Shown here in pieces: positions 5,883 through 23,311 of a stretch of 24,000 nucleotides of DNA; position 1 is the stretch's first letter, and every line of letters begins with the position of its first letter. The notes beneath the pieces were generated by a model. That model was not told where the DNA came from. It made no database searches and saw only the letters and a program-made list of their open reading frames with translations. Made by a program: the position numbers and the translations under genes. Source of the DNA: Reichenbachiella versicolor (lineage in GTDB: Bacteria; Bacteroidota; Bacteroidia; Cytophagales; Cyclobacteriaceae). The stretch covers positions 1,094,684-1,118,683 of the forward strand of contig NZ_QFZQ01000001.1 of assembly GCF_003171675.1 (NCBI RefSeq), read 5' to 3'.

Positions 5883-6431
5883 ATGAAAACTTATAACCTA
5901 ACAATAATCTTCGCGCTTTGTGTTATTCTGATTTCAGTAGCATGTTCTGAATTAGCTGATTCGACCTGTCAATGTACTGAACGTGCATGCTTCTCGAAAG
6001 ACAACCCTGTGATCACTTTAGCTTTTGAGATTACATCGAGTCAACAACTTAACTCCGAAGATTTCGATAGCATAACGGTGGTTCAACTCAAACTTGATAA
6101 CACACCCTTAGATAGTATCGAAACAAGCTTTGTTCCGATCGAATTTGGTAGCTCAACGCTTCAACTTAAAATTGGTGAAGAATACTCAAACTTTCGCTTC
6201 CCATTTTCTGAATCCAAATTGCTCATAAAAAATATTGACCTTCAGCAAAACGATACAATTTCAAATATCAGCTATAATGCAATTGAAACAGAAGAAGTCT
6301 GCAACGTATGCTCTGGAGGTCCTAATTGTCAAGACGAAACTTATATTGTAATCACTTATAATTCTCCTAACCTTAGCTACAACCAACTCGACTTAAGCAG
6401 TTTTGAAATTCCATACACCGTAAAAGAATAA
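5883..6431 (+). CDS. Small lipoprotein, function unknown
   Basis: The signal peptide with lipobox MKTYNLTIIFALCVILISVAC is followed by a Cys-containing mature part (CQCTERAC ... CNVCSGGPNC). Confidence 0.55.
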   Translation: MKTYNLTIIFALCVILISVACSELADSTCQCTERACFSKDNPVITLAFEITSSQQLNSEDFDSITVVQLKLDNTPLDSIETSFVPIEFGSSTLQLKIGEEYSNFRFPFSESKLLIKNIDLQQNDTISNISYNAIETEEVCNVCSGGPNCQDETYIVITYNSPNLSYNQLDLSSFEIPYTVKE

Positions 6432-6438
6432 AAATCAT

Positions 6439-6818
6439 AATCGAGTAGACGGCCGTGAGCCATAAGCTCACGGAGCGCCTCTCACACCACCGTATCCCGT
6501 ATCAAGTACGGGACAGGTTGTACCGATCTGGTATACGGCGGTTCATCAAATCAACTAACTAGACAAAATTGCATTACGATTGTATCTACATATAGCAACT
6601 CTGATGCGACCTCCATATTCAACCTAATCCTATAACTTCACTCTCCTGACACCATCAAGTTTATAATGGTAAAAGTCAAAAAGTACAACCCTTCATTATC
6701 ACGAATCTTGTACCGGTTAGCCATAGCTACCAATTAAAATTAAGAACACCGAAATGAAATTGCTAGATACTTCTATATAAGCTTGATTTCAGTCGCAAAA
6801 CATTTGCGACCGAGCGGG
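6439..6818 (-). mobile_element. ORF-less group II (IIC-like) intron 3' fragment: domain IV remnant (A-type repeat 6715..6818), spacer, and domain V/VI-like element (6439..6550)
   Basis: The minus strand reads GAACCGCCGUAUACC-AGAUC-GGUAC...AUACGGUGGUGUGAGAGG followed by a hairpin and CCGUCUAC. The 5' and 3' strands match the domain V of group IIC introns as I recall it (CGC triad). No reverse transcriptase ORF is present. Confidence 0.55.
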
Positions 6819-6919
6819 TTTTAAGTAAGAAATAGTATACATGTGATTTTGGTTTGTTTGTAGTTTCGGATATTCTATTATTGTAGGTATCAATTGAACT
6901 ATTATGTGATATATATAAT

Positions 6920-7462
6920 GTGAATAGATGGAGTATGTTAGATACCAGATTATCTAAAATGACCTTAGACAAACTAAATATTACATTTGCGACAATTCTG
7001 TTATTCAGTGTTACATATTTGCTGGATCTCTTCTTGCCGAAAGATGAAATTAAACTCACAGAACAACAAACTTCCTTTTATTCAGAGTCAGGAAATCAAC
7101 CTTCTATCACAAAACTTGATTACGGATACGGTTCGCACACAACTTCCTATAATTCGGCCCAACTTAAGTTTGGAAATAACAGCATGCTAATGCCCTTGGG
7201 TCGACAGGCTGGAAAGCTTAGAGTAGAGTTGATCAAAAAAGGAATTGATATCAAGGTATCGAAAATATTCAGACTGGTTACCTCTTATAAACTTTCTAAT
7301 ATTAAGTATAACAGTAGAGACTATATTTTCATTAACTGGAGCCTCTTCATCTCATTAATATTAATGACGATTGAAAAAGCGTTTCGACCAGGAGGTGATA
7401 TTTTGTATTGGATGTCAATTCTTGCATTTGCATTAACCTCTTATATAATGTTCATAATTTAA
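6920..7462 (+). CDS. Hypothetical membrane protein
   Basis: An N-terminal TM (ITFATILLFSVTYLLDLFL) and two C-terminal TMs (INWSLFISLILMTI; ILYWMSILAFALTSYIMFII). The start is uncertain (GTG 6920; ATG 6935 or 6959). No recognisable domain. Confidence 0.4.
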   Translation: MNRWSMLDTRLSKMTLDKLNITFATILLFSVTYLLDLFLPKDEIKLTEQQTSFYSESGNQPSITKLDYGYGSHTTSYNSAQLKFGNNSMLMPLGRQAGKLRVELIKKGIDIKVSKIFRLVTSYKLSNIKYNSRDYIFINWSLFISLILMTIEKAFRPGGDILYWMSILAFALTSYIMFII

Positions 7463-7700
7463 AAAGTAGCTAACAAGCTGTGATAGGGCATGCCCATGTT
7501 CACTTACAGAATCATTACAAGAAGATATTCAACCGATCCGACCAGAGAGTGTTTATGATGGCCTTCCTAAGTATTCCTAAATCTAAAAGTGCGGCAATAT
7601 TATTGAAAGGATAATGCTATTTAAGCAAAGAACAATCTTCAAGCAGAAAGATTAAAATGATAATATTATCTTGCGATCGCAAAAATAACCTAATACCAAT

Positions 7701-8963
7701 ATGGCTTCATTCTTTCCGGTACTCGGCTTCCTTATTGTTAATTCCATTTATTTAATAGGAAAATTTATCACTTCAATCTTATTAGGTGTACATGATACAA
7801 GGGTCTTTATTGGCTATGGTACTAAGCAATTATTTAAGCTAAAGTTAAAAAAATTAGAACTCCACGTAGGTTGGTTTATTCCGTTGCCTTGGTTAGCTAA
7901 GTTCTATAAGTATGATGAATTTGTAAAAGAACCTATTAGTTATGAATGGCAGCTTACGAAGCATTCTATTTTAACGAGACTTTTGACAATTTATAGTGGA
8001 GCTATATTTAGTTTCCTTATGGCGATGGTAATATTTACGGGTGTTAACTACATGACCCCTAGAACCATTCTATCTATAGAGGAATTCAATAAATATGGTG
8101 TGTATCCTTCACAAGATGGGATGACATGGTTCGAAGAAGGAGACAAAATTCTACAGGTCAACGGTTCTGTGCTAAAAGAATACAGGGATATTTTTATACA
8201 GGAAAGTGATAGAGACTCGATTCGATTGACTGTAGAGAGAGATGACACATTGATTGACATATTCATACCAGCTAACCAGCTAAAACCAGATAGCTTATTT
8301 ACTATAAATGCTCCATTTACTATAGATAGCATTGTTTCGAGTTCATTCGCCTATTTTGCCAAATTGAAGAAAAGAGATCAAATCATAAAAGTAGATAATA
8401 AGCCTGTGAAATCTTTGGCTTCTTTTAAAGATGAGATTAGTCAATCCAAATCAAACTACGTTTGGCTTACTGTACTTAGACAAGGAGAAGAGATAATACT
8501 CGAGTGTCAAAAAGATCAAGACAATATTTTGGGGTTTACCAGTAGGATAGGATTGGAATATGATCAAGAGAGATTATCCTTATTACAATCTATTAAATCG
8601 GGGGCTACTTATCCATTTGAGGTTTTTTATGTAAATAGCAAGGCATTTGTGAGTCTGTTTATAGGGGAAGTGAAAACTAAAAATAGACTAGGAGGCTCTA
8701 TAGGTTTAGCCAAATTATGGTCTTCAAATGATTCTTGGTCACACTTCTTGAGAATAACCGGATTCCTTTTGTGTTTGATTTTGTACTATGAGATACTTCC
8801 AATTCCAGGTCTAGGACTTAATAGATCTATTCCATTGATTTCTGAGGCAATAGGCAGACCGATGAATAGAAAGGGATATTTCAAAACAAAGAAATACTTT
8901 TGGTGGTCTTTGTTTTTACTCTTTGTGGTGAGTGTAGTAAAGGATTTGAGTTCATTGATTTAG
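7701..8963 (+). CDS. RseP/site-2-protease (M50) homologue with PDZ domains but lacking the HExxH and LDG catalytic motifs (pseudo-protease)
   Basis: Collinear with RseP. The N-terminal TM plus GV..R.F.IG.G block is present, but IYLIGK replaces HEFGH. IPLPWLAKF corresponds to LPLGGYVKM. There are two PDZ-like segments (GDKILQVNGSVL; KKRDQIIKVDNKPVKSLASF). NRLGGSIGLAK corresponds to NLSGPISIAK. EILPIPGLGLNRS replaces NLLPIPxLDGGH. Confidence 0.6.
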   Translation: MASFFPVLGFLIVNSIYLIGKFITSILLGVHDTRVFIGYGTKQLFKLKLKKLELHVGWFIPLPWLAKFYKYDEFVKEPISYEWQLTKHSILTRLLTIYSGAIFSFLMAMVIFTGVNYMTPRTILSIEEFNKYGVYPSQDGMTWFEEGDKILQVNGSVLKEYRDIFIQESDRDSIRLTVERDDTLIDIFIPANQLKPDSLFTINAPFTIDSIVSSSFAYFAKLKKRDQIIKVDNKPVKSLASFKDEISQSKSNYVWLTVLRQGEEIILECQKDQDNILGFTSRIGLEYDQERLSLLQSIKSGATYPFEVFYVNSKAFVSLFIGEVKTKNRLGGSIGLAKLWSSNDSWSHFLRITGFLLCLILYYEILPIPGLGLNRSIPLISEAIGRPMNRKGYFKTKKYFWWSLFLLFVVSVVKDLSSLI

Positions 8964-9215
8964 TCAATTTAAAATTGGAAGACTAAATAAAATATACTAT
9001 TGATCTTGCCATTGTGGGCAACTGCTATATTTTTTAAATGCCATTACTCGATTTCTCATTTTGATCTTGTTTTCAAAATGTCTTGAGATATCCATATACT
9101 TCTGATCAAAGTCTCTCTTACCATCATCTGAATTGTCATTAGGGTTGTTCCAGTGATATATTCTTATCTGGGAACAATTATCATGCTCAAAAAGATATCT
9201 AAGTAGTGTTCTATC

Positions 9216-9686
9216 GGTTAGCTATAGCTACTAATTAACATTAAGAACACCGCAATGCAATTGCTAGATATTTCTATCTAGACTAGATTTCAGTCGTAAA
9301 ACATATGCGACCGAGCGGGGTGATGGCTCTGCCCATTGGTACCATGGCGTCTGCTGACTTCTTAGTCTCCATCTCGTGGAGTTTAAGATCTCCCTTGGTA
9401 AGGCGAATATCCTTGTATCTAATCCTGCAAGATCTACTATGTCGACACTAACTCTTTCGAGCTTTGGACTTCGGTAAGATGTGTTACCTCATCCCATCAA
9501 ATAGCCTCTGTATCTAGTTTCTGTTCATCAGTTCAGATACCGCAGTCTGGCTTACTTCACTGCATACCTCACGGTAAACCAGCTTGCCACTTGCTTAGCT
9601 TCGGGTAACGACTCCCGCGCTTACAGGACTCTCACCTTTTGGAACGTTTCTCTTTTGAGACTATATTCACCATTCAAGGCACACAC
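9216..9686 (-). mobile_element. Group II (IIC-like) intron 5' fragment: domains I-III (9321..9686) plus start of domain IV (A-type repeat 9216..9320); no intron-encoded protein
   Basis: The minus strand begins GUGUGCCUUGAAUGGUG. It also contains GGUGAGAGUCC, GUGAAGUAAGCCAGACUGCGG, CCUUACCAAGGGAG and GAAGUCAGCAGACGCCAUGGUACC. These strings closely resemble the Oceanobacillus iheyensis group IIC intron as I remember it. Confidence 0.65.
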
Positions 9687-10119
9687 TAGCTGTGATGAAA
9701 TCATGCTTGGAGAATGCTAGCTGAAAGTTTTGCTACATTCTGGTAGCTCCGCCAATTCTGCGAATTGGCCTACTGAGAAATAAAAAAGTAAGAACCCATC
9801 TCGTAGAGTTGGCTATTTAGTATATGAAACATTATCTTCACCAAGACGCACGATTCATACAGGATCGTTAGCATTCAACACAACAAACTGCAAATTATCT
9901 CATCATAAATAACCATTTTATATTTAATCAACACTCATAAGTTTACCAAACTTAAGGTTGTAAATTAACTAACATATTAGTTTGACGATTGTGAATTAAC
10001 TTACTTGAATTTTACGTGATGTAATAAAATTATGTGATTTGTCCATATCCTTGTACTTATAATTACTTTTACATTGAATTGGTATTTGATTCGATTTTAG
10101 ATAACTTAATAATAAATAA

Positions 10120-11259
10120 ATGAAGAAAATAAATCTATTTACTCTAATTCTATTAATTCACATGATTGTGGCTTGCAATAAGGATAACAATCCCATAACA
10201 AAAGAATTTGGATCTGGATCCATTACTTTTAGCCCTAAAGAAACCAAACAGTCTTTTAGTAGATCTTACTCAACCAACTTTGAAAATATACATTCTATCG
10301 TTGTTTCGATTACTGACAATGATGGCCCTTTAGCTGATTATAATAAAACTGAAATACCTATTAGTAAATTCGACGCTAGTTCAATCGCAATTGATCCAAT
10401 CGAATTGAATCCTGGAGATTATTCTATCAGCTTTTTTGAACTTAGAAATATTAATGGATTTACAGAGTATGCCACTCCTTTAATTGGCTCTGAACTTGCT
10501 GAAATGGTAAATTACCCACTGCCAATCAATTTTACAATATCTTCAGACAATGCAACGAATGTAACAATAGAGGTTATAAATACATTAAATCGTGATGCCT
10601 CAGAATTTGGTTATCTCGAACTCGACATTGCAGAAGCAGCTGAATCTGAAACTATAGTTGATTATGATGGCAACGAGTATCGTGTAATAAAAATCGGAAA
10701 TCAATGGTGGATGACAGAGAATTTGCGCTCAATACATTATAGTGACGGAAGACCAATAGAATATAGTTGGTATAATAATGAATCATCTTATGCTGAAATA
10801 TATGGTGCTTTATACGATTGGGCCTCAGTTATAGATGCTTCTAAAACTTCAAATAATACACTAAATGGTATTCAAGGAGCTTGCCCTACAGGATGGAAAG
10901 TTCCTTCCGATCAAGATTGGAAAGAACTTGAACTATTTGTAGGTATGTCAGAAGATGAAGTGAAAAAAACAGGCTATAGACTTGGAGCTGGAGGTAAATT
11001 ACGTGCATTAAATGACCTATGGAGAGAAGGTGTTGCTGGAACTGATGAATTTGGTTTTAGTGCTTTGCCAGCTGGGTATTATTTTTCAGATATGAATGAA
11101 TTCATTGCTGTTGGTACAGATGCTGCTTTTTGGACATCAACAGAGACTTCATCGGCTTTAGCCTATTGGAGAGATATATTTCATGACCAGGATCTTATTA
11201 CTAGACAGGGAGTTTCAAAAAACAACAGATTATCATGTAGGTGCATAAAAGCTCAATAA
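10120..11259 (+). CDS. Lipoprotein with C-terminal FISUMP (Fibrobacter succinogenes major paralogous, TIGR02145-type) domain
   Basis: Lipobox LIHMIVAC. The C-terminal half has DGNEYRVIKIGNQWWMTENLR, YGALYDW, CPTGWKVPSDQDWKELE, GFSALPAGY, FWTST and CRCIK, which are the hallmark FISUMP motifs. Confidence 0.7.
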   Translation: MKKINLFTLILLIHMIVACNKDNNPITKEFGSGSITFSPKETKQSFSRSYSTNFENIHSIVVSITDNDGPLADYNKTEIPISKFDASSIAIDPIELNPGDYSISFFELRNINGFTEYATPLIGSELAEMVNYPLPINFTISSDNATNVTIEVINTLNRDASEFGYLELDIAEAAESETIVDYDGNEYRVIKIGNQWWMTENLRSIHYSDGRPIEYSWYNNESSYAEIYGALYDWASVIDASKTSNNTLNGIQGACPTGWKVPSDQDWKELELFVGMSEDEVKKTGYRLGAGGKLRALNDLWREGVAGTDEFGFSALPAGYYFSDMNEFIAVGTDAAFWTSTETSSALAYWRDIFHDQDLITRQGVSKNNRLSCRCIKAQ

Positions 11260-11963
11260 TATGAAGCTACCAAATGTTTTAGGCCCGTGCTATATCTTAT
11301 TTCGCATTAATAAGAAGTCAATATAAATGAAGTTAATAATGATCTTATTAGCAATTTGAAATACCATATTCATTTTGTAAAAAACAACTGACTACCCAAA
11401 GGGAGTATATATGCCTTTGAAATAAAGTCAAAATCTCCAAGTGTTGCTTATGCACTTGAAATTGAACGGAAAACTAAAGGAGATATTAAAAAGAATTGAC
11501 AGAACAATTATAAACAGTTTAAGTTGGATAAATCAATTCCCAATAAGACATCATGAAAGAATATTATGCTTGCTCAGACGGAGATTCTTTTTATATCAAT
11601 TGCATTCATTACAAGATTTAACCTTGGTATGCCCCAACTCTTGAGTGCGAGAAAATTTTAGTAATTCAAAGGAAAATCTATGATTCCAAAAAATCAGACA
11701 GAATAACTTGACAACCAAGCTTAACTTGGAAACATATTTTGGGGCAATTGGTGGAGTAATTCAGGGAGCAAAATTGGCTTCGTTAAGGTTCATTTATGCG
11801 ATTGATAGAGAACCAAACTAAAACTATATAAATTAATTATTTAAGTAAACTATTAGCAGGCACTAGAATTCTTGAAGCAGTATGAGGCAGAGCAAGAAAA
11901 AGTGGATCAAGCTTTATTCATTAAATATCTGATCTGAGCCTTCTGAATGAACAAAACTGATGC

Positions 11964-12136
11964 TAATCGTGTAGACGGCTCCGCCCCTTATTAGGAACGG
12001 AGTGCACCTCTCACACCACCGTACCCCGTATCAAGTACGGGACAAGCTGTACAGATCTGGTATACGGCGGTTCATCAAAACTCAGTTTTACAATTTCAAA
12101 TAGTAACCCCGCTCGATCGCAATTCCATTGCGATTC
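11964..12136 (-). mobile_element. Second group II intron 3' fragment: domain V/VI-like element (11964..12080) adjacent to a domain IV stem remnant (12107..12136)
   Basis: The ~75 nt core (cctctcacaccaccgta.cccgtatcaagtacgggaca...ggtatacggcggttcatcaaa) is nearly identical to 6477..6550. The adjacent hairpin differs in sequence but still pairs. Confidence 0.55.
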
Positions 12137-12871
12137 TATTTTTGATATAGCCTTATCCATAGTCAAACTAGTCCGAAATTTTTACTTTGATAACTCCATC
12201 AAGACCTGTGTAATTAATTGTACTATTATATAGGTACTCTTCTGACTAGTCAAGCCAATTAACTCAACCAAAGCCTCTTCCATCAAAGTAATTCCTCAAG
12301 ACTAAACTACCATCATCAAAGTAAAATGATACTGGTAGTTTGGTCTTTCTTTTATGCCCTATGGATACTACAAAAGAGGTATTTACCATAGTCACCCTTT
12401 TAGGGTAAATACACTAGAGATGAAATCCTCACTTTTGAATGTGATCAAAAGTTGAGTGAATCATCACACTAGATGATGCGATAGACTTTGATTTCATATT
12501 GTAAACTATAATTCCCGATCAAAATGTATTCTATTGCCACCCAAATTACTTTCTATCGTCAAGGTGTAATTGATTTGATTACCCCATTGATATCAAACAC
12601 TTCATTGTTCTCACAAAGAATAAAACTGAAGTTGCATTCAACAAATGTCTTAAAAGGTTTGATACCCATCTGATCAGAAGACAACTGATCCACAGATCAA
12701 TTGTACTAGCTGAGCTAGATTATTTCTTCAAGCAAAAGTAGTCTCTCAAGTCAGCAGTAAAGACCAATATTAGGCAATTGCCTAACTAGGTTCATACTAT
12801 CCATTCTTTAAAAATTTTAAACCCATCCCTAAAAGTCAAATCGACTCTAGGGAATAGAATCACTGTGCCCA

Positions 12872-13771
12872 ATGAAATACAATACCATCAAAACCCAGCT
12901 AGAGCCTAATTTACTTTCTCAGCGATTGTCCGAAGAAGAAAGCACACTTCTTCATACTACAAAGGCCAAAATCTTAAACAACCTATCTAATGCATATTAT
13001 GATCCTCAGTCATTGTCCGAAGAGATGAATATGTCTCACGTTCAACTCACACGAAAGATAAAGGCATTGACAGGATATACACCCGTAGACCTGATCAAGT
13101 ACTACCGGCTAGAATACGCCAGTGTATTGTTGCTTGAGACCAATGATTCGATCAAAGAGATTACCTACAAGACAGGTTTCCTTTTACAAGGTAACTTTTG
13201 TCGAACCTTCAAAAAATGGTTTCATAAAAGCCCTTCAGATTATCGATTGGAACATAAGAAGGAGCCATTGTCATTTAAGTATCACTGTAATAGTCCCTTC
13301 TCTAAAAATGACGTTCAGTACCTCACTTGGCTTCAAAACTCACATCCATTCATAGGTCAAGTGCTGTCTACTATTATAGAGAATATCCAGCAGGATGGAT
13401 TAAATGTAAGAATACTCGCTGGGTATTTGGCGGTCGAACCTGACTATATAGATAAGACAATAGATGAATTACTGAGTCTATCGGTAAAAAAATTTATCAA
13501 GAACGTTCGTTTACAGTATGCTGCGGAAGCTTTAGTGTATGATGATGCATCTGTCACCAGTATAGGCTATACCACTGGTTTTTTTGATACAGCCCATTTC
13601 AGTAGATCATTCAAGGAAGCGTATGACTGCACCCCATCAGTGTTTAGATCTACTATTCAGAAGGGGTCATTTCCACCTTTTTTAACCATAAATCTACTGA
13701 AGTCAAAAAAAGATAAGACGAGCCGTTTTTTATACAATCAATCAAAGCATTCAGAAGATAGGTTTGTATAA
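12872..13771 (+). CDS. AraC-family transcriptional regulator made of two tandem AraC-type HTH domains and no sensor domain
   Basis: Domain 1: LSEEMNMSHVQLTRKIKALTGYTPVDLIKYYRLEYASVLLLETNDSIKEITYKTGFLLQGNFCRTFKKWFHKSPSDYR. Domain 2: LAGYLAVEPDYIDKTIDELLSLSVKKFIKNVRLQYAAEALVYDDASVTSIGYTTGFFDTAHFSRSFKEAYDCTPSVFR. It ends 27 nt before the first Reb-like ORF, on the same strand. Confidence 0.7.
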   Translation: MKYNTIKTQLEPNLLSQRLSEEESTLLHTTKAKILNNLSNAYYDPQSLSEEMNMSHVQLTRKIKALTGYTPVDLIKYYRLEYASVLLLETNDSIKEITYKTGFLLQGNFCRTFKKWFHKSPSDYRLEHKKEPLSFKYHCNSPFSKNDVQYLTWLQNSHPFIGQVLSTIIENIQQDGLNVRILAGYLAVEPDYIDKTIDELLSLSVKKFIKNVRLQYAAEALVYDDASVTSIGYTTGFFDTAHFSRSFKEAYDCTPSVFRSTIQKGSFPPFLTINLLKSKKDKTSRFLYNQSKHSEDRFV

Positions 13772-13798
13772 GAAATTAAATAATAAAGATACAAAACT

Positions 13799-13960
13799 AT
13801 GAGTCCTACATTGATACAAAGCTTTATTGCCATGACAGGGTCGATTGGCATGGTCATGCAAAACGGTGCTTCAAATCAGAAAAATGGTCAAATGGTTTCG
13901 ACAGCGTGTACCGGAGTAGCCTGTGCTATGATTGTGAAAAAAGGGGGCAATGCTAAGTGA
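13799..13960 (+). CDS. Short (53 aa) Reb-like 'core-only' protein; not in the supplied ORF track
   Basis: ATG 13799 to TGA 13960 gives MSPTLIQSFIAMTGSIGMVMQNGASNQKNGQMVSTACTGVACAMIVKKGGNAK. It aligns with the central RebB core (LYQATAQALANAAHNATTNQQQANITAQAATTQGVATLYA) at Q, N, NQ and GVA positions. It also resembles the N-domain of the collagen fusion ([30 protein letters not shown]). Confidence 0.4.
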   Translation: MSPTLIQSFIAMTGSIGMVMQNGASNQKNGQMVSTACTGVACAMIVKKGGNAK

Positions 13961-14021: not shown

Positions 14022-14360
14022 ATGGCAAATCAGCAAAATTCTTCAATTGGAGTCGTATCACAAGCTTCTACTCCGGTGTCTACTGTAGTAAGACAGGAGG
14101 GAGCAGGGAAAGCATACCAGTCGGTGGCGCAGTCTACTGCGATAGCCATTCAGGATGCTACGGATAACTTAAGAAACGTCAACACGATGAGCACTACAGC
14201 TCAGGGGGTAGCGATGGCACAGTTTCTCGCAACTGGTGAATCAAAGTACGCAAAGGCTCTGGAACTGGCTCAGTCTATGTCTGTAGCTGCTTCGGCTAAC
14301 TTCTTAACCGTTAGTACTAATGCGGCAGATGCACTTAAAGGATATCCCTCAGGACAGTAA
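14022..14360 (+). CDS. Divergent RebB-family (R-body/killing trait) protein, 112 aa
   Basis: AYQSVAQSTAIAIQDATDNLRNVNTMSTTAQGVAMAQFLATG parallels the canonical LYQATAQALANAAHNATTNQQQANITAQAATTQGVATLYA. It has N- and C-terminal extensions. Confidence 0.55.
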   Translation: MANQQNSSIGVVSQASTPVSTVVRQEGAGKAYQSVAQSTAIAIQDATDNLRNVNTMSTTAQGVAMAQFLATGESKYAKALELAQSMSVAASANFLTVSTNAADALKGYPSGQ

Positions 14361-14389
14361 TATTTATTTACCTATAAACAACAACACAC

Positions 14390-15406
14390 ATGGTTTTCAT
14401 GGCTGGTAAACAGATTGACAATATCAATGCATTTTCATCGCAGTTTCTGACTACTTTGAAATTGATCAATGACGGATACGCATGGTTGAAATGGGCATTG
14501 ACCAATCCTGGGCTGTCAGTATACTATGCTCAAAATGAGCAGGACTTGTTGTTGAAGATACAGAGCGGTTTGCATGAGACGCTTTTGCTTCGATGCAAAG
14601 CATTTACCATCCATCTTGAGACCATTCTTACTTTTGATGAGGCTGATTTGGAGTTGCTTATTGAGTTGTTTGATACCAATGCCAGTCAGTCTGCCAGCAT
14701 AGCTTCACTGTCCAAAAGGTATTCACTGACGACTAATAAGCAGCTAGTGACGAATGCATCTTTTCTTAAGCAATACAATCAAACCGATGCTCCAGTTTTC
14801 CAAGGAATAGGATTTGAGGATCAATTGGAGCTATACAAGTTTCAGAAATCTATCAAGGAAGGAGAGGAAACAAATGAAGCGATAGCCTTTGCACTGAGTA
14901 AGGCTTCTAACAGTAGTGAATTTGTGCACTACTCTAACTTCTATATCAATTGTATCAATCATCAACTCACTGATCAGCCTGACTCTGCAGCCAGATCAGA
15001 GCAGATCAATGATATGTACAATATGTTGGACAATGTGTGTTTTAACCTGATCTACGTGCCTCAGGTAGGGTCTTTTAATTCACAGAAGGAATTGATGGAT
15101 CATCTGAAGGATTTTATTTCAACTACCAAATTCGTAGGGTATCAGATGAAGGCATCAGCTATGGATAGCTTATCTAAAAACATACCTATTCATGGGGCAT
15201 CGGATGAGCAACTACGAAAGAACATAGAACAGTTTTTGTCATTCATCAAACAAGAAGTGGCTAGAGGACAATTTGAACCCGAACCTATGCCACAGGATGG
15301 TCAAGAACAGTTATTTAGTATAACGACTGAAAAATACAAAACAACCATAGTAGTAGATACGGAGAGCAATTTGTTCTTATCACCTACTTCGGGGTCAATT
15401 GAATAA
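14390..15406 (+). CDS. Hypothetical protein (338 aa, predicted helical), no recognisable domain; embedded among Reb-like genes
   Basis: Long uninterrupted ORF on the same strand with 29 nt spacing from the upstream gene. There is no TM or signal peptide and no motif I can name. Confidence 0.6.
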   Translation: MVFMAGKQIDNINAFSSQFLTTLKLINDGYAWLKWALTNPGLSVYYAQNEQDLLLKIQSGLHETLLLRCKAFTIHLETILTFDEADLELLIELFDTNASQSASIASLSKRYSLTTNKQLVTNASFLKQYNQTDAPVFQGIGFEDQLELYKFQKSIKEGEETNEAIAFALSKASNSSEFVHYSNFYINCINHQLTDQPDSAARSEQINDMYNMLDNVCFNLIYVPQVGSFNSQKELMDHLKDFISTTKFVGYQMKASAMDSLSKNIPIHGASDEQLRKNIEQFLSFIKQEVARGQFEPEPMPQDGQEQLFSITTEKYKTTIVVDTESNLFLSPTSGSIE

Positions 15407-15520: not shown

Positions 15521-16027
15521 ATGGACAATTCAGAGATAATAAACAACCTGAAGCAGCTTCAGGATTTGCTTACCGAGAGAGAGGAGTCTAAGTCAATGAC
15601 TATGGTAAACACCGTGATGGCGGAGACTCTGGGAATGTCGATGCACAATGCAGTCTCCGCTCAGCACAATGCCCAAATGGTCAATGCTGCTGCGACTACG
15701 AGCACCTGTGCGAGGATCATTGCAACAATAGGAGAGAAACCTCATACTCCAGGCCCTCCAGGTCCTCCGGGTCCAAAAGGTCCTGCGGGTGAAATAGGAC
15801 CAGATGGTTTGAGAGGACCTGTAGGAGCGACGGGGGCACAAGGTCCGATTGGCATCGTAGGTGAGCAAGGTCCTAAAGGAGAGCCTGGCAATCCATCTGA
15901 AACGGTGAAGGTGGAGATCGTAGATAATCCGAGCAGTACACCTAGCAAAACGGATCCGCCGGCTACTCCAACGACTCCAACTACACCTAGTAGTCCTTCG
16001 AACCCTAATCCGGGTGGTAGTCACTGA
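15521..16027 (+). CDS. Reb-like N-terminal domain fused to a collagen-like triple-helix repeat and a Pro/Thr/Ser-rich tail
   Basis: The N-terminus [43 protein letters not shown] is Reb-core-like. Then 16 uninterrupted G-X-Y triplets follow ([48 protein letters not shown], nt 15752..15895). The tail is [29 protein letters not shown]. Confidence 0.7.
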
Positions 16028-18431: not shown

Positions 18432-20327
18432 ATGCCTATTCAAGAGATACAATCATTAGCCCAATTTGCTGATGAGACATTAGTTCTCGTTGGCAAAGCC
18501 AATCAATCATCGGCAAGCGAGATGACTCCATACCTACAAGAGTGGAGTCAAAAACTATCGCAAGCCGTTACAGGTATGGGGGCTTCTAACCAAGTACAAT
18601 TAATAAAAGAACAGTTCAATCTGGACGATCAATCCATTGCATTTATCCTACTCACCTTATTGCCAGCACTGGATACTAAGTATACAGACTTCTTCAAGGA
18701 AGCTTCATCAAACCCTGCAAGAAAAATACCCACTATTGATTTGGTGAGCTCTTTGATGTGTGATAGTTACGATCAAAAAACGACTTTCATCAATCAGCTA
18801 AGAGATGATTCTCCGATCTTCAAATGGAGAATGCTAAAAAGGCTAGGAGATGATTTTATCCAATCTGAGTTACTTCCTGGAAAGGATTTGGTGTTGCATT
18901 TGGCTTCTACCAATGAGCTCACAAGAGACGCATCTGGACTGGTCAGCCAAATAACAAAGCCAGCGCTAGGCATACCCGCAGATCAGGTAAAGAACAAGCC
19001 TATCGGTCAGATTATTAGTATTATTGGAGGAATCGATGCTCGAAGGAAATCTTATGCCTTCAACTGTAGTCAAATGCTACAAAGACCATTGTATCAATTC
19101 AATGCTGAACTTTTTCAGTCGATCAAAGATCCAGTGGGAGAGTTGACTGAGACCTTGCTCTTTGTGATGCTTAGAAACGGAGTACTCTATTGGGAAGATG
19201 GTATATCTACTTTTCAAGAACAAGCTGATGTAGCCAAGCTCATTCGCTCATGGTTAAGCATGAAGAATAGCCTGTTGATTGTAGGACAAGACGAACATAA
19301 AACGCTACCTACTATATTCAAGAATATTAATACCGATTCAGTTACACTGGTCAAGGCTGATCAGAAGATCAATCAGTTGATATGGGAAAGTGTAGGCAAT
19401 GAGTTTTTGCAAGTCACCAATGTCGATTATAAGCAGCTCAGCAATACTTATACAACCGACTACACTCGGATAGAAGAAACCATGCGCCGAGCCGCTGAGG
19501 GGAAAGAAAAAACTGGAGTTGCAGTGACGACCGAGGCGGTTATTAGTGATTATTTGGCTACAAGTCCTGAGAAAGTTACGGACATGGCTAGCAGAGATCA
19601 TTCGTCCTATAGCTTCGAAGATATGATTCTGCCCAAGGATACACAGTCAGGCATTGATCATCTGGTAAAAGCCTATCAACAAAGGGCTAAAGTGAACCCA
19701 GCTCATCCTGCGGGTATCATAGCCATATTTGAAGGAGCTAAAGGTACAGGCAAAACTATGGCAGCGATATGTTTAGCCAATCAGCTAGGGATACCACTCT
19801 ACAAGGTTGATTACAGTGCGTTGGTTGGAGTATCTCAAGATGCTGAGAAGACGCTCAATCTATTGTTTGCAGAAGCAGAACGAAATACGGCTTTATTGCT
19901 ATTCGATAATGCTGACAATTTGTTTACTGAGTCGGAGACTTCCGATACGCATCGTGCACTGATATCTACCTTGATTCAAAAAATGGAGTCCTATGGCTGT
20001 TTGATCCTATTGGCCACGAGTGATAAGCCAAAGGTCAGTAAGGAATTGTTCCAGAGAGCCTTGATGCAAGTAGACTTTCCAGTTTTAAATAGTAAGGATC
20101 AGTATGCCTTGTTTACTAAGATTTTGGCTCAAAAAGGAATAAAAATTAAGAATGAAAGCCAGCTTCAAGACATGGTTAAAAAGCTAGGCGCCAATGGAAG
20201 ACAAATCCAGAATATAGTACAAAATGCCATCATTTCATCGGATGGAGAGCATGTTCCACTGCAAGAATTAGAAATCACAGCCAATGACCTAGCTAAGGCC
20301 ATTGATTTAGAAAAAAAGAAACAATAA
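18432..20327 (+). CDS. AAA+ ATPase (single C-terminal AAA module, ~430 aa unknown N-terminal region) with degenerate Walker B
   Basis: Walker A is GAKGTGKT (19734..19757). Walker B is LLLFDN (19893..19910), with Asn where the catalytic Glu is expected (FDNADNLF versus the usual FDEADALF). The sensor-1 region is LILLATSDKP. A second region of homology is RALMQVDFPVLNSKDQYALF. Confidence 0.8.
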   Translation: MPIQEIQSLAQFADETLVLVGKANQSSASEMTPYLQEWSQKLSQAVTGMGASNQVQLIKEQFNLDDQSIAFILLTLLPALDTKYTDFFKEASSNPARKIPTIDLVSSLMCDSYDQKTTFINQLRDDSPIFKWRMLKRLGDDFIQSELLPGKDLVLHLASTNELTRDASGLVSQITKPALGIPADQVKNKPIGQIISIIGGIDARRKSYAFNCSQMLQRPLYQFNAELFQSIKDPVGELTETLLFVMLRNGVLYWEDGISTFQEQADVAKLIRSWLSMKNSLLIVGQDEHKTLPTIFKNINTDSVTLVKADQKINQLIWESVGNEFLQVTNVDYKQLSNTYTTDYTRIEETMRRAAEGKEKTGVAVTTEAVISDYLATSPEKVTDMASRDHSSYSFEDMILPKDTQSGIDHLVKAYQQRAKVNPAHPAGIIAIFEGAKGTGKTMAAICLANQLGIPLYKVDYSALVGVSQDAEKTLNLLFAEAERNTALLLFDNADNLFTESETSDTHRALISTLIQKMESYGCLILLATSDKPKVSKELFQRALMQVDFPVLNSKDQYALFTKILAQKGIKIKNESQLQDMVKKLGANGRQIQNIVQNAIISSDGEHVPLQELEITANDLAKAIDLEKKKQ

Positions 20328-20332
20328 CTGAT

Positions 20333-20668
20333 ATGAAACCTGAAGATTTTCCTATAGCTAGTATTATTAAGCCAGAACCTGTTGAGAATGAGTCTAAGCC
20401 TAATAATGATTCTTCTTCACCTATTTCTAAGATGCCCGAAAATGATGAGAATACAGTTTCGAGCCCAAGCGCATCATCCTCAAATGCGAATCAGAATGAA
20501 AACAACTTGAATTCTGCTAGCGCTGAACCTGAAGTAACTAATGCAGAAAATAAACAAGAGGATACGCGAGTGAACACCACGGAAAAAGCCCCCATATCTA
20601 ATGGATCATGGGAGTTAACATTTGAAGAAAATTTATTTCTTCTGGAATTCGACCTTTTCAATGAATAA
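20333..20668 (+). CDS. Acidic, Ser/Asn/Glu-rich low-complexity protein with a short hydrophobic C-terminal motif
   Basis: 111 aa, predicted disordered (NNDSSSPISKMPENDENTVSSPSASSSNANQNENNLNSASAEPE), ending in WELTFEENLFLLEFDLFNE. It starts 5 nt after the AAA+ stop. Confidence 0.5.
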   Translation: MKPEDFPIASIIKPEPVENESKPNNDSSSPISKMPENDENTVSSPSASSSNANQNENNLNSASAEPEVTNAENKQEDTRVNTTEKAPISNGSWELTFEENLFLLEFDLFNE

Positions 20669-20681
20669 TTAAATAGAACCA

Positions 20682-22043
20682 ATGAGACTTTTTATATACA
20701 AAAACAACAGACTACTAGATGTTATAAAGTCTAGTTATACTGGTCAATCAACACTGTCAGATGTATTTAGTCCTACGATTACTTCTAAGTATTTATTGGA
20801 TAAGGATAAGGGTACGGGTACGGATACAAGAGAATCAATATTTTGGGCAACAGCCATGCTGGCCATAAAAGCAGTGAAATTCAAAGCTTCAATAAATGTT
20901 CTAAAAAATATTGCTAAGGAGGATAATTCTGGTCGGACTATTCTAGTAGATCAATCTTCAAGCACAAAAGAATCAAACGGTTATGATTTCTATCTTGATC
21001 GAGATACAGGCTGGTGTGCTCTAGCAAAAAACTATACTATTTATCGCGAAATAGGAGGAGCAGGAAATATCCCAGATAAGAATTCTTATTTGCAGTCTGT
21101 ACAAACCCCTCCTTGGCTGGACTACAAAAATCATTATGGATTTTTCTCAACTGATGGGTCTGAGAGTTTCGCAAAGAAGTTGATTAAAGGAGAGGAGTCT
21201 ATAATTCCTTTTGGAGCAGGTAATTTCTATGGAGAGAAGTTTGCCATGACTTTGAATCATTTGCAGGATATGTCTAGAGTATCAATGCTAGTGTCTGAAA
21301 CGGTCAGAGCAGTTTTAATAGTCGAATGGCCTGCGGCAGTATATGATGTTTCAATATTTAGCTACATACAAGGAGAAGATCAAAAGAAAACAGCCCTAAA
21401 CGAGTATAACAAGTTTATGAAAGAAATGGATGTGTCTCACCAAGATATAAGCGCTTTCAATTATCCATCAACTCCTGCCATCGGAACAGATTCTTTTTTG
21501 GACAAATTGCAAAGAGTTGAATTATACATTATAGCAGCATATCAACAGTTAAAAACATTGATTTCCTGTTATCATTTTGACAACACTTCACTAAATAAAG
21601 AGCTTTATCAAAAAATATGTAGTGGCATTCTTTATGCCTTGAGCAAAGTTTGTAAACATCTTGGAAATCTGATCAGTGGGGCTATTCATTCTGCTTTAGG
21701 GCCTGCGGATCTAGGGATAAGCGATTTAGGTAAAGAACTGTTTAACAGTCTTTCTGATACATTGGATAAGAAGCATGCACTCTATGAAAATGGTGGACAT
21801 TCTGAGGGCGTAAAAGTGGCATTAGATAATATGCTTGATACAATCGTTATCTCTTATGTGATTTTCGATTTATTTCTTCTTAAATGGGGGGTAGCGGAAG
21901 TGGTGACAAAACGAACTCCAGATCAAATTAAAGACAAGTTGGATATGGTTCGTAAACTAATAGTTGCTAAAAATAAAAAAGTGCCGCACTCTGTCATAGA
22001 AAGACTCAAAGAAGAACTTTCTCCACAAATGAAAGGAAAATAG
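20682..22043 (+). CDS. Hypothetical protein (453 aa), no recognisable domain
   Basis: Long ORF starting 13 nt after the upstream stop. There is one hydrophobic stretch near the C-terminus (IVISYVIFDLFLLKWGV). No motif I can name. Confidence 0.6.
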   Translation: MRLFIYKNNRLLDVIKSSYTGQSTLSDVFSPTITSKYLLDKDKGTGTDTRESIFWATAMLAIKAVKFKASINVLKNIAKEDNSGRTILVDQSSSTKESNGYDFYLDRDTGWCALAKNYTIYREIGGAGNIPDKNSYLQSVQTPPWLDYKNHYGFFSTDGSESFAKKLIKGEESIIPFGAGNFYGEKFAMTLNHLQDMSRVSMLVSETVRAVLIVEWPAAVYDVSIFSYIQGEDQKKTALNEYNKFMKEMDVSHQDISAFNYPSTPAIGTDSFLDKLQRVELYIIAAYQQLKTLISCYHFDNTSLNKELYQKICSGILYALSKVCKHLGNLISGAIHSALGPADLGISDLGKELFNSLSDTLDKKHALYENGGHSEGVKVALDNMLDTIVISYVIFDLFLLKWGVAEVVTKRTPDQIKDKLDMVRKLIVAKNKKVPHSVIERLKEELSPQMKGK

Positions 22044-22075
22044 ATCTGTTGAACATTTGAAAATTCAATCATACC

Positions 22076-23311
22076 ATGACACCCACACCTTCTTCACATA
22101 CTACATCAGGGGCACCTATGCCTCCTATGCCGTTAGTAACGGCAAGTCATTCAGGTAGATCTGCTGCAAGCTCTACTGCACCTCCCTCAAGTGCTAGAGA
22201 AATATTACTCATCTGGTTTAACGGAACAGGTACACCAATGGAAGATATGGCGCCTCTATTGACACACCTGCATCTATCACCTAGTCAGATGCAGTCTATT
22301 TCAGGACTGGGAACAGAAGACAACCTCATATCCTCCAAGGCTTTGTCTTCCAATTCAAATCTTCATAGTACAGGAAGCTGGTTTGATCCGACTTCATATA
22401 CGCTATTCAATACAATACTTGGAACCAAGGATACTACAGCAGGGTATGCAGAGAGAAACCAATTCGCGTCTATCAATGCTGTATTTAATACCATAGACAA
22501 GATTTCCACTTCTTCTAGTTCCAATATAGAATTGATCATTGGGGGACATAGTAGAGGAGCGGCAGCAGGAATAATAGGATTTCTATCATCACTATTAGAG
22601 GCTATTTCCAAGGACAAGAGTTTTAGGGAAAGTCCCTTGTACAAGAAAGTGAAGAAAATACACGTGATCTCGGTAGATCCTGTAGCTGGACAACGAGGAA
22701 ACGATTTGACAGGAGGGGAAGATATACGAATAGATCAGCTATATAAAAGCATCCAGAGTAAGTTCGAAAACACCTCTTTGATCAGTACTACTTTATACCA
22801 AGCCAGATTTGATTGTCGAGATGAGTTCAAAGCAGATGATAAATGGTTAAATTATCTAAAAGCCAACTACAACTTTGTCACAGCAACTTCTACTAACCCT
22901 AGTTTTAGGTATTACATAGCAGGTTTTAGGCATTCAATAATGATCTATCCCAATGATGGAGAACTATCAAAATCATTGTATGCCAATACACAAGTAACCC
23001 CATTAAACTTATTGATCAATATCATCAATGATATAGTAGGCAATACGAATACCGCACAGACCATATTTGATCAATTAATAGCCCTAGAAAAGGAAACTGT
23101 TTTCAATCTAAAACTATATCCATTAGGCTATCCAAAATTATCCTACGCTACTTCAGTAGATGGGTATAGCGCCATAGAGAAAGCATTGTCTAAGATATAT
23201 GTTTTCACAGGAACAAGTCTGGTAGATACGGTCAAGGACAAACCAGACAGCATTCTTGTATCAAGTACACCAGTCAACAATAGATACACTTTTTACTTCT
23301 TCAATAAATAA
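22076..23311 (+). CDS. DUF2235 / T6SS Tle1-like alpha/beta hydrolase (candidate phospholipase toxin) with disordered Pro/Ser/Thr/Ala-rich N-terminus
   Basis: LLIWFNGTGT corresponds to the DUF2235 'v.fDGTgN' block. The nucleophile elbow is GGHSRGAAAG (Ser codon 22550..22552; compare GFSRGA in Tle1). The Asp block is HVISVDPVAG and the His block is IAGFRHSIM. The first ~40 aa are MTPTPSSHTTSGAPMPPMPLVTASHSGRSAASSTAPPSSA. There is no signal peptide. Confidence 0.6.
   Translation: MTPTPSSHTTSGAPMPPMPLVTASHSGRSAASSTAPPSSAREILLIWFNGTGTPMEDMAPLLTHLHLSPSQMQSISGLGTEDNLISSKALSSNSNLHSTGSWFDPTSYTLFNTILGTKDTTAGYAERNQFASINAVFNTIDKISTSSSSNIELIIGGHSRGAAAGIIGFLSSLLEAISKDKSFRESPLYKKVKKIHVISVDPVAGQRGNDLTGGEDIRIDQLYKSIQSKFENTSLISTTLYQARFDCRDEFKADDKWLNYLKANYNFVTATSTNPSFRYYIAGFRHSIMIYPNDGELSKSLYANTQVTPLNLLINIINDIVGNTNTAQTIFDQLIALEKETVFNLKLYPLGYPKLSYATSVDGYSAIEKALSKIYVFTGTSLVDTVKDKPDSILVSSTPVNNRYTFYFFNK

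What the first reader, a model, noticed from the sequence alone, without database searches (positions are those of the whole stretch)
22076..23311. Tle1-like (DUF2235) serine hydrolase with a disordered N-terminal extension: candidate R-body cargo toxin
The motif order FNGTGT ... GHSRGA ... VDPV ... FRHS matches the DUF2235/Tle1 phospholipase effector fold, with a G-x-S-x-G nucleophile and Asp and His blocks. Such enzymes are established antibacterial and anti-eukaryotic T6SS effectors. There is no signal peptide. Instead there is a ~40 aa Pro/Ser/Thr/Ala-rich N-terminus that differs in composition from the rest of the locus. Disordered N-terminal segments serve as packing signals in other injection machines. 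The toxins delivered by R bodies are still unidentified, so a lipase linked to reb genes is a concrete candidate. No obvious immunity lipoprotein is visible within the window.
Basis: partly seen in the sequence, partly recalled or inferred. Interest (0 to 1): 0.72.

Follow-up and report, generated by a model that had tools for sequence, protein, structure and literature searches.

The report
Divergent Tle1-like lipase in R-body operon
This gene encodes a signal-less serine hydrolase only distantly related to Tle1 toxin phospholipases; it sits with a lysozyme at the end of an R-body operon, so it is a plausible but unproven and clearly non-universal candidate for the long-sought R-body-associated lytic factor.

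Summary
The ORF (22076-23311, +, 411 aa) is real and identical to a Reichenbachiella versicolor hypothetical protein. No member of the family hits Pfam DUF2235 (PF09994), even at E<=10. Remote homology to Tle1 is nevertheless supported. Profile-profile alignment to Tle1-EAEC relatives gives E=4e-5 (probability 70%; shuffled controls E 0.08-0.8). The Ser and Asp blocks align in register. Tle1 and TleB are the top PDB neighbours of two AlphaFold models, though weakly (E about 2-3e-3). It is therefore a new, rare sister family (76 clusters), not a DUF2235 member.

The R-body cargo idea is weakly supported. Only this locus and one syntenic metagenomic locus link the hydrolase to reb genes. None of 78 other related reb loci carry it, and 13 other family contexts lack reb. 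The hydrolase's constant partner in its closest clade is a GH25 lysozyme, with or without reb. Lysozymes recur in reb loci, which fits published evidence that the cell wall blocks R-body-driven rupture. The Pro/Ser/Thr/Ala-rich N-terminus occurs only in the two reb-linked copies, but that is a single lineage, and a disordered N-terminus also occurs in a reb-less relative.

Best reading: a latent membrane-lytic enzyme that acts with GH25 once the cell envelope is breached.

The parts
22076..23311 (+). Hydrolase ORF (411 aa), alpha/beta-hydrolase with Ser159-Asp201-His286; member of a small family not covered by Pfam
22076..22195 (+). N-terminal 40-aa Pro/Ser/Thr/Ala-rich disordered extension (75% PSTA; DNA GC 0.51 vs 0.38 for the rest of the gene)
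22217..22234 (+). FNGTGT block after strand beta-1 (putative oxyanion-hole loop); aligns with FFDGTGNN of Tle1-EAEC
22298..22315 (+). ISGLGT block; aligns with YISGIGT of Tle1-EAEC
22544..22561 (+). GHSRGA nucleophile elbow (Ser159); aligns with GFSRGA (Ser197) of Tle1-EAEC
22673..22684 (+). VDPV block (Asp201) at the end of a beta strand; aligns with FDTV (Asp245) of Tle1-EAEC
22802..22819 (+). ARFDCR block; aligns with AMHECR of Tle1-EAEC
22925..22936 (+). FRHS block (His286, invariant in 37 sequences); putative catalytic His
23321..24000 (+). GH25 muramidase with an N-terminal TM anchor (VLVILIVLLVSALIFALFV); truncated by the window end; starts 9 bp after the hydrolase
20682..22043 (+). p453, orphan protein with no family hit; absent from the syntenic locus L001
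20333..20668 (+). p111, acidic low-complexity protein; absent from L001
18432..20327 (+). AAA+ ATPase with an N-terminal winged-helix domain; directly precedes the hydrolase in L001
17847..18401 (+). p184, Gln/Glu-rich low-complexity protein conserved in L001
16102..17694 (+). Five tandem RebB-family (PF11747) genes
15521..16027 (+). RebB-like domain, collagen GXY repeats and a Pro/Thr-rich tail
14022..15406 (+). p112 and p338, conserved reb-core accessory genes (found in 39 and 31 of 78 related reb loci)
12872..13960 (+). AraC-family regulator (12872-13771) and a 53-aa Reb-like ORF (13799-13960)

Best explanation
The gene encodes a cytoplasmic, signal-less serine esterase or lipase with a Ser159-Asp201-His286 triad. 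It belongs to a small unannotated family that is a distant sister of the DUF2235/Tle1 phospholipases. Together with the adjacent membrane-anchored GH25 muramidase it forms a two-enzyme, envelope-attacking module. That module existed before its association with R bodies and was captured at the 3' end of the reb operon in the Reichenbachiella lineage. Proposed mechanism: GH25 reaches the periplasm through its TM anchor and weakens the wall, so that R-body extension can burst the cell. The hydrolase stays harmless in the cytoplasm, as Tle1-type enzymes do. It reaches membrane lipid only when the inner membrane is breached. It then degrades the producer's remaining envelope and/or the membrane of the predator's phagosome. 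On this reading it is a co-released lytic factor, not cargo physically packed on the ribbon. Shown here: the fold class, conservation of the triad residues, remote Tle1 homology, operon position, and GH25 co-occurrence. Inferred: lipid substrate, latency, timing and target.
For: Enzyme identity:
- The motifs are invariant across the family.
- The second AlphaFold model is confident (pLDDT 89.9, pTM 0.90) and has alternating strands and helices, with Ser159 just after strand residues 151-158 (model 113-120), Asp201 just after strand 192-200 (model 154-162) and His286 shortly after strand 277-281 (model 239-243).
- hhalign against Tle1-EAEC relatives gives E=4e-5, controls give E 0.08-0.8, and five motif blocks plus a conserved Trp align in register.
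- The top PDB neighbours are Tle1 (4o5p) and TleB (9j3f).

Localisation:
- The hydrolase has no signal peptide or TM segment; GH25 has a strong TM anchor.

Operon:
- The genes are co-directional with 5-32 bp gaps.

Module:
- All four members of the closest clade (window, L001, L002/L003, L020) have GH25 adjacent or within two genes, and two of them lack reb.

Lysozymes and R bodies:
- GH25 occurs in 7 of 78 other reb loci in at least two further architectures, and GH24 in one more.
- R-body extension lyses lysozyme spheroplasts (36% intact) but not walled cells (95% intact).

Action on external membranes is plausible:
- Distant relatives are T9SS-secreted proteins, and one is fused to MACPF and ricin lectin domains.
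- Another reb locus (L036) carries a signal-less PF04185 phospholipase-C-family gene.
- DUF2235 TleA/TleB were toxic only when targeted to the periplasm, not when expressed in the cytoplasm.
- The literature considers species-specific toxins co-released with R bodies.
Against: - No enzymatic or genetic data exist, and the substrate is inferred only from remote homology.
- Foldseek matches are weak (none at E<=1e-3, TMq 0.29-0.42), and hhalign probability is only 70%.
- Most family members (Flavobacterium, Edaphocola, Vibrio) sit in unrelated operons with DUF2589, an OEP-like gene, a PLP decarboxylase and a pLGIC-like gene, and no lysozyme, so the family's core role may be something else.
- The hydrolase is absent from 78 related reb loci, so R bodies do not need it.
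- Co-transcription is inferred from gene spacing only; the promoter/terminator scan is uninformative for Bacteroidota.
Confidence: 0.45

Rival explanations
1. One reading: the hydrolase is a true R-body cargo toxin. It is physically loaded onto or into the Reb ribbon through its disordered Pro/Ser/Thr/Ala-rich N-terminus, possibly with help from the adjacent AAA+ ATPase, and is injected into the target when the ribbon unrolls.
For: - The extension is present only in the two reb-linked copies (window and P0002/L001) and absent from all close non-reb relatives.
- The AAA+ ATPase lies immediately upstream in L001.
- The RebB-collagen protein of the same locus carries a similar Pro/Thr-rich tail.
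- The R-body toxin is still unidentified.
Against: - The two reb-linked copies are 63% identical and syntenic, so they represent one evolutionary event (n=1).
- The two extensions share composition but little sequence.
- Disordered N-termini of 30-85 aa also occur in P0025, P0026, P0039 and P0051. P0025 (Aquimarina) has no reb within 10 kb.
- Pro/Thr-rich linkers also occur in other proteins of these loci: the GH25 of L002 and D7 of L053.
- None of 78 other reb loci has this family.
- No precedent for protein packing on R bodies was found in the papers read.
Confidence: 0.12
2. A purely self-directed lysis accessory. The hydrolase acts like mycobacteriophage Lysin B or a spanin substitute. After a membrane lesion and GH25 action it destroys the producer's outer membrane to free the R bodies, and it has no role against other cells.
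For: - GH25 adjacency in all four closest contexts.
- GH25 matches phage endolysin families (phrog_291, E=1.6e-38).
- Small or multi-TM membrane proteins lie next to GH25 in L001, L002, L032 and L044/50/53-55. The last group also has a downstream protein with a lipoprotein-type signal, giving a lysis-cassette layout.
- The wall blocks R-body rupture.
Against: - No holin or spanin homologue was recognised by PHROGs.
- Lysin B is only a weak structural neighbour (probability 0.35).
- No prophage genes were recognised among the window ORFs scanned.
- Relatives fused to T9SS sorting domains or to MACPF/ricin point to action on external targets.
Confidence: 0.2
3. A hitch-hiking or functionally unrelated enzyme. 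The family may be an esterase, thioesterase or acyl-hydrolase with a non-membrane substrate, for example in signalling or small-molecule metabolism as in the Flavobacterium operons. On this view its position after the reb genes reflects insertion of a mobile gene block, not function.
For: - The dominant family context is an unrelated conserved operon with a PLP decarboxylase, a pLGIC-like protein and DUF2589 proteins.
- The block after the reb core is highly variable between loci.
- p111 and p453 are orphan insertions.
- Only sub-threshold matches to lipase families (Lipase_3, best E=2e-4).
Against: - Tight spacing (9-32 bp) and the same strand as the reb genes.
- Synteny is retained in a second locus at 57-63% protein identity.
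- The best remote homologues are phospholipase toxins.
- Lipid- and wall-degrading enzymes recur next to reb cores elsewhere.
Confidence: 0.2

Closest known systems
Tle1 / DUF2235 (PF09994) T6SS phospholipase effectors (Tle1-PA 4O5P, Tle1-EAEC, TleB 9J3F)
   Same: Both are alpha/beta-hydrolases with a G-x-S-R-G-A-A nucleophile elbow. The conserved blocks are collinear: (F/W)F(D/N)GTG, xSG(I/L)GT, GxSRGAA, (V/F)D(P/T)V and A(R/M)(F/H)(D/E)CR. Ser-to-Asp spacing is similar: 42 residues here, 48 in Tle1-EAEC and 40 in TleB. Neither has a signal peptide. Tle1 and TleB are the best PDB structural neighbours.
   Different: There is no PF09994 hit at any threshold. hhalign probability is only 70% and Foldseek E is only about 2-3e-3. 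The nucleophile motif is GHSRG rather than GFSRG. The His block is FRHS rather than HSD(I/V)GGGY and lies about 20 residues further from the conserved Trp. The protein lacks the large Tle1 C-terminal or membrane-anchoring module. There is no VgrG, PAAR or DUF4123 chaperone and no Tli lipoprotein nearby. The host is a Bacteroidota organism and the gene lies in a reb operon.
Legionella pneumophila PlaB phospholipase (6ZTI/6ZTH)
   Same: A signal-less phospholipase with an N-terminal Ser-Asp-His alpha/beta-hydrolase domain.
   Different: It is not among the top 50 neighbours of the better model. There is no sequence-level relationship.
Mycobacteriophage Lysin B (lipolytic lysis enzyme working with an endolysin)
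   Same: A signal-less alpha/beta-hydrolase encoded next to a peptidoglycan hydrolase. It offers a conceptual model for a lipase that completes envelope destruction after the wall is cut.
   Different: It is only a weak structural neighbour (E=3e-2, probability 0.35). There is no phage context here, and the envelope chemistry differs.
R-body (Reb) killing systems of Caedibacter, Pseudomonas aeruginosa PA14 and Azorhizobium
   Same: A cluster of RebB-family genes under a dedicated regulator. The published model is that R-body extension releases bacterial contents, including an unidentified toxin.
   Different: No lipase or lysozyme partner is described in the surveys read. This Bacteroidota locus adds a RebB-collagen fusion, p112/p338, an AAA+ ATPase and the hydrolase-GH25 pair.

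Membership tests
DUF2235 / Tle1 (PF09994) | Match to the Pfam PF09994 profile at or above the gathering score | tested here: not met
   No PF09994 hit for the protein at E<=1, for any of 11 family members at E<=10, or for 15 distant GFSRG relatives at E<=10. As a check on the seed, the Tle1-EAEC hits carry precomputed PF09994.
DUF2235 / Tle1 (PF09994) | Profile-profile homology to genuine Tle1 sequences | tested here: inconclusive
   hhalign of A4 (37 sequences) against A3 (15 Tle1-EAEC relatives) gives probability 70%, E=4e-5 over 73 columns. Reversed and 22 shuffled (20 distinct) controls give E 0.08-0.8 and scores 12-22 against 45.6. The match is above noise but below the usual 90-95% probability. 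The DUF2235 alignment was shallow (at least 53% identity).
DUF2235 / Tle1 (PF09994) | Collinear catalytic and structural motif blocks (FDGTxN, GxGT, GFSRGA, DTV, HE-R-F, HSD) | tested here: met
   With a permissive alignment (mact 0.01), five blocks and the conserved Trp are in register, with S159~S197 and D201~D245. His286 is offset by an insertion of about 20 residues. The blocks are invariant in the family.
DUF2235 / Tle1 (PF09994) | Structural similarity of the catalytic module, with a superposable triad | tested here: inconclusive
   The top PDB hit of model 1 is Tle1 4o5p (E=3.2e-3, TMq 0.29). The top hit of model 2 is TleB 9j3f (E=2e-3, probability 0.99, TMq 0.42, rmsd 14 A). No hit reaches E<=1e-3. 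Residue-level triad superposition could not be computed.
DUF2235 / Tle1 (PF09994) | T6SS genetic context (VgrG/PAAR/chaperone) and an adjacent Tli immunity lipoprotein | tested here: not met
   Neighbours are reb genes, an AAA ATPase, p111, p453 and GH25. Compare the EAEC locus with VgrG-Tle1-Tli1-Tli1-PAAR.
DUF2235 / Tle1 (PF09994) | Phospholipase A1/A2 activity dependent on the nucleophile Ser | not testable with these tools
   Needs an enzyme assay with a Ser159Ala control.
alpha/beta-hydrolase superfamily | Alternating beta-alpha core with the nucleophile at a strand-turn-helix elbow and Asp and His on loops after later strands | tested here: met
   DSSP of the pLDDT 89.9 model shows strand residues 151-158 (model 113-120) followed by Ser159 and a helix, strand 192-200 (model 154-162) followed by Asp201, and strand 277-281 (model 239-243) followed by His286. 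Foldseek neighbours are esterases and lipases.
Lipase_3 (PF01764) | Match to the Pfam profile at the gathering score | tested here: not met
   Eight of 11 homologues give sub-threshold hits (best E=2e-4). The window protein gives none.
R-body (Reb) system component | Encoded in a cluster with multiple RebB-family genes | tested here: met
   Five RebB genes, a RebB-collagen fusion and a 53-aa Reb-like ORF lie upstream on the same strand. Synteny is repeated in L001.
R-body (Reb) system component | Conserved co-occurrence with reb loci across taxa | tested here: not met
   None of 78 related reb loci carries the family (HMM E<=1e-3). Thirteen of 15 distinct family contexts with flanks lack reb.
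Phage-type lysis cassette | Endolysin with an adjacent holin-like membrane protein, with or without a spanin or lipoprotein | tested here: inconclusive
   GH25 matches endolysin PHROGs and has a TM anchor. The window ends inside GH25. L001 has a 305-aa multi-TM protein after GH25, and L002 has a 98-aa TM protein before it. None matches a known holin.

The most novel reading that the evidence does not exclude
R-body operons act as platforms that carry lineage-specific, signal-less lytic payloads. The payloads seen here are a Tle1-like lipase in Reichenbachiella, a phospholipase-C-family enzyme in L036, and lysozymes in many loci. In the strongest version of this reading, the Pro/Ser/Thr/Ala-rich N-terminus of this hydrolase is a recruitment tag, recognised by the adjacent AAA+ ATPase or the Reb ribbon. 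That would make it the first identified R-body cargo toxin and the first R-body loading signal.
Probability: 0.12. Interest if true: 0.85.

Novelty: new variant of a known kind. Interest (0 to 1): 0.5.

Why it matters
The toxin or lytic factor that acts with R bodies has been unknown since the killer-Paramecium work, and recent papers still call it unidentified. This locus comes from a named marine bacterium (Reichenbachiella versicolor). It offers two concrete, testable candidates in one operon: a divergent Tle1-like lipase and a membrane-anchored lysozyme.

The lysozyme link recurs in independent reb architectures. It fits the published finding that R-body extension ruptures spheroplasts but not walled cells. 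It therefore suggests how producers license R-body ejection.

Separately, the hydrolase defines a rare family not covered by Pfam (76 clusters at 50% identity among 1.84 billion proteins). This family extends the Tle1/DUF2235 lineage into Bacteroidota. There it appears as a stand-alone cytoplasmic protein, as a domain of T9SS-secreted proteins, and once fused to MACPF and ricin domains.

Tried and rejected
- Direct membership in DUF2235: rejected, because there are no PF09994 hits and no Tle1 hit by sequence profile against the PDB.
- NCBIfam, PADLOC and PHROGs on the hydrolase: nothing useful. A defence-system reading was dropped; the AAA ATPase has only weak IetA/IteA-like AAA-domain similarity (42-50 bits).
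- Plasmid origin of the locus: no megablast match in PLSDB.
- Bait with the AAA ATPase in metagenomes: no relatives found.
- Idea that the ~490-aa paralogues flanking the hydrolase in L002/L020 are CDC/MACPF-like pore formers: no Pfam or PDB support, so it is left as untested.
- Homology between the multi-TM proteins next to GH25 in L001, L032 and L053: none detected.
- Viral structure library as a test of a phage-lysis-lipase origin: only generic giant-virus esterases, with Lysin B weak.
- Sigma-70 promoter and terminator scan: fewer promoter-like sites than shuffles and no terminator between the AAA gene and GH25. It is uninformative for Bacteroidota promoters.
- Upstream extension of the ORF, or fusion with p453: excluded by an in-frame stop and a different reading frame.
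Full report
**1.

The ORF at 22076-23311 (+) encodes 411 aa. It is identical over its full length to a hypothetical protein of Reichenbachiella versicolor, a member of Bacteroidota, Cytophagales. An in-frame stop at 22058-22060 fixes the earliest possible start.

| Motif | First residue | Key residue |
|---|---|---|
| FNGTGT | 48 | - |
| GHSRGA | 157 | Ser159 |
| VDPV | 200 | Asp201 |
| FRHS | 284 | His286 |

They are invariant or nearly so (F284 >=90%) in the 11-member family alignment. In a 37-sequence alignment reaching down to about 20% identity, His286, Arg160 and Gly161 are invariant, and Ser159 and Asp201 are at least 90% conserved.

The protein has no signal peptide or TM segment. Its first 40 residues are 75% Pro/Ser/Thr/Ala and are predicted to be disordered. 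The DNA encoding them is GC-enriched, at 0.51 against 0.38 for the rest of the gene.

Five RebB genes (PF11747) lie upstream on the same strand, together with a RebB-collagen fusion and a 53-aa Reb-like ORF.

**2. What the protein is**

Pfam PF09994 (DUF2235) does not match in any of these tests:
- the protein itself;
- any of its homologues at E<=10;
- 15 distant relatives that carry the GFSRG motif.

Family profiles also fail to reach Tle1 in PDB sequences. Eight of 11 homologues give only sub-threshold Lipase_3 matches.

For a profile-profile test I retrieved Tle1-EAEC from E. coli 042 and collected its PF09994-annotated relatives.
- hhalign of the 37-sequence family alignment against 15 Tle1 relatives gave probability 70% and E=4e-5 over the GxGT-to-GxSRGAA region.
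- Reversed and shuffled controls gave E 0.08-0.8.
- With permissive settings five motif blocks and a conserved Trp fall in register. These are WFNGTGT~FFDGTGNN, ISGLGT~YISGIGT, GHSRGAA~GFSRGAA, VDPV~FDTV and ARFDCR~AMHECR. His286 is displaced by an insertion of about 20 residues.

Two AlphaFold models were made. The first had pLDDT 71. The second, trimmed to residues 39-411 and built on 37 sequences, had pLDDT 89.9 and pTM 0.90.
An mBio paper gives 4O5P as the PDB code of the Tle1 structure it used for molecular replacement, and a second paper cites that entry as the P. aeruginosa Tle1 structure.
- The top neighbour of the second model is 9j3f, TleB, a DUF2235 phospholipase (E=2e-3, probability 0.99, TMq 0.42).
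- No hit reaches E<=1e-3.

Conclusion: this is an alpha/beta-hydrolase of a distinct, rare family, with 76 clusters at 50% identity among 1.84 billion proteins. Its nearest known relatives are the Tle1/DUF2235 phospholipases. It works like a Tle1-type serine hydrolase but is not a DUF2235 member by the family's own profile.

**3. Relatives point to action on external targets**

Distant relatives include large proteins with T9SS C-terminal sorting domains. One carries MACPF and ricin-lectin domains.

**4. Genomic context across the family**

- The closest homologue, P0002 (63% identity in the alignment), lies in a syntenic reb locus, L001. Its gene order is AraC, p112, p338, RebB-collagen, RebB genes, p184, AAA ATPase, hydrolase, GH25.
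- The next clade (P0003 and P0004, 52-53% identity) has no reb genes. It keeps a GH25 lysozyme two genes downstream and is flanked by two-component regulators.
- More distant members (Flavobacterium, Edaphocola, Croceitalea, Vibrio, Celerinatantimonas) have no reb genes within 10 kb. Most lie in a conserved operon with two DUF2589 proteins, an OEP-like protein, a PLP decarboxylase and a pLGIC-like protein.

In the opposite direction, 78 related reb loci were fetched with RebB as bait.
- They share the core AraC, p112, p338, RebB-collagen and RebB genes.
- None carries the hydrolase family.
- Regions flanking the reb core are highly variable.

The hydrolase is therefore a lineage-specific addition to this reb operon, not a conserved R-body partner.

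**5.

Nine base pairs downstream begins a GH25 muramidase (E=4e-47). It has a strongly hydrophobic N-terminal anchor and matches phage endolysin families.

Peptidoglycan hydrolases recur in other reb loci:
- GH25 occurs in seven other reb loci.
- One architecture (L044, L050, L053-55) has a lysis-cassette layout: a multi-TM protein, a GH25 with an N-terminal region resembling a PG-binding domain, and a protein with a lipoprotein-type signal. These calls were read from the sequences, not profile-tested.
- L057 has a GH24 lysozyme fused to a C39-like peptidase.
- L036 has a signal-less PF04185 phospholipase-C-family protein beside its reb core.

Polka and Silver reported that R-body extension ruptured lysozyme-treated E. 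coli spheroplasts, with 36% remaining intact. Untreated cells stayed 95% intact. A co-encoded lysozyme therefore has an obvious role: it lets the R body burst out of its producer.

**6. The N-terminal extension**

The extension occurs only in the two reb-linked copies. However:
- those copies represent one lineage;
- the two extensions share composition but little sequence;
- Pro/Thr-rich segments also occur in other proteins of these loci;
- other family members have disordered N-termini of 30-85 aa, and one of them (Aquimarina sp. W85) is a stand-alone gene without reb neighbours.

The packing-signal idea is not excluded, but it rests on thin evidence.

**7. Mechanism**

Best reading (confidence about 0.45): the hydrolase and GH25 form a pre-existing envelope-attacking pair that was appended to the reb operon.
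- GH25 weakens the wall from the periplasmic side.
- The signal-less lipase is latent in the cytoplasm. The DUF2235 effectors TleA and TleB were toxic only when targeted to the periplasm, not in the cytoplasm.
- It acts on membranes once R-body extension breaches the inner membrane. Its target is the producer's remaining envelope, the grazer's phagosomal membrane, or both.

Rivals:
- a physically packaged cargo with an N-terminal signal (0.12);
- a purely self-lysis helper similar to Lysin B (0.20);
- an unrelated esterase that hitch-hiked into the operon (0.20).

Only the fold class, motif conservation, remote homology and gene neighbourhoods are shown here. Substrate, latency, timing and target are inferred.

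**8. Novelty and value**

This is a new variant of a known kind: a divergent sister family of Tle1 in a new genomic setting. Published reb surveys do not mention lipase or lysozyme partners, and the toxin is still unknown. The locus gives experimentally tractable candidates. The absence of the hydrolase from other reb loci limits how general any result would be.

Noticed in passing
window 23321-24000 (+), runs off the window end: A GH25 muramidase with a strongly hydrophobic N-terminal TM anchor starts 9 bp after the hydrolase. GH25 or GH24 lysozymes recur in at least 8 other reb loci (L032, L038, L044, L050, L053-55, L057), each GH25 beside a non-homologous multi-TM protein. This fits published data that the cell wall blocks R-body-driven lysis.
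   Followed up: partly
window 15521-16027 (+): A fusion of a RebB-like domain, collagen-like GXY repeats and a Pro/Thr-rich tail. Homologues ('RebCol') are present in 42 of 78 related reb loci.
   Followed up: partly
window 14022-15406 (+): p112 and p338 have no Pfam family but are conserved next to reb genes in 39 and 31 of 78 related loci. They are likely core R-body accessory proteins of this locus type.
   Followed up: partly
window 18432-20327 (+): An AAA+ ATPase with an N-terminal winged-helix domain and weak similarity to the IetA/IteA anti-phage ATPases (42-50 bits). It is conserved in L001 but has homologues in only 2 of 78 other reb loci. Its role (assembly, loading or regulation) is unknown.
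   Followed up: partly
window 20333-22043 (+): p111 (acidic, low complexity) and p453 (no family hit, possible C-terminal TM segment) are inserted between the ATPase and the hydrolase. They are absent from the syntenic locus L001 and from every other locus fetched, so they are orphan genes of unknown role.
   Followed up: partly
window 4930-5598 (+): A SLATT_5 domain protein (PF18160, E=1e-52), a 2TM effector domain associated with SMODS/SLOG systems. The next two ORFs (5883-6431, 6920-7462) have no family hit. This may be a defence-system fragment.
   Followed up: no
L036 14387-16486 (+): A 699-aa PF04185 phosphoesterase/phospholipase-C-family protein (E=1.5e-61) whose N-terminus appears to lack a Tat or Sec signal. 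It lies two genes after p338 in another reb locus, giving a second, unrelated lipid-attacking enzyme beside an R-body core.
   Followed up: partly
L004, L006, L009, L012-L014, L016, L017 (about 5000-13500 in each): A conserved uncharacterised operon in Flavobacterium and Edaphocola. It contains two DUF2589 proteins, small ORFs, an OEP-like protein, a 258-370-aa protein, the hydrolase, usually a PLP decarboxylase, and a pLGIC-like protein (Neur_chan_LBD). A LytTR response regulator and a TPR histidine kinase are encoded divergently upstream.
   Followed up: partly
L002 8370-9863 and 11120-12562; L020 1-1098 and 3960-5399: Paralogous proteins of about 480-497 aa flank the hydrolase in the non-reb loci. 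They have no Pfam or PDB sequence match. I suspected a pore-forming (CDC/MACPF-like) fold but could not test it.
   Followed up: partly
P0066 (1583 aa; found by the profile search, no locus): A relative in which the hydrolase domain (residues 77-314) is fused to MACPF-like (770-959) and ricin B lectin (about 1000-1118) domains. The architecture resembles a membrane-attack toxin.
   Followed up: no
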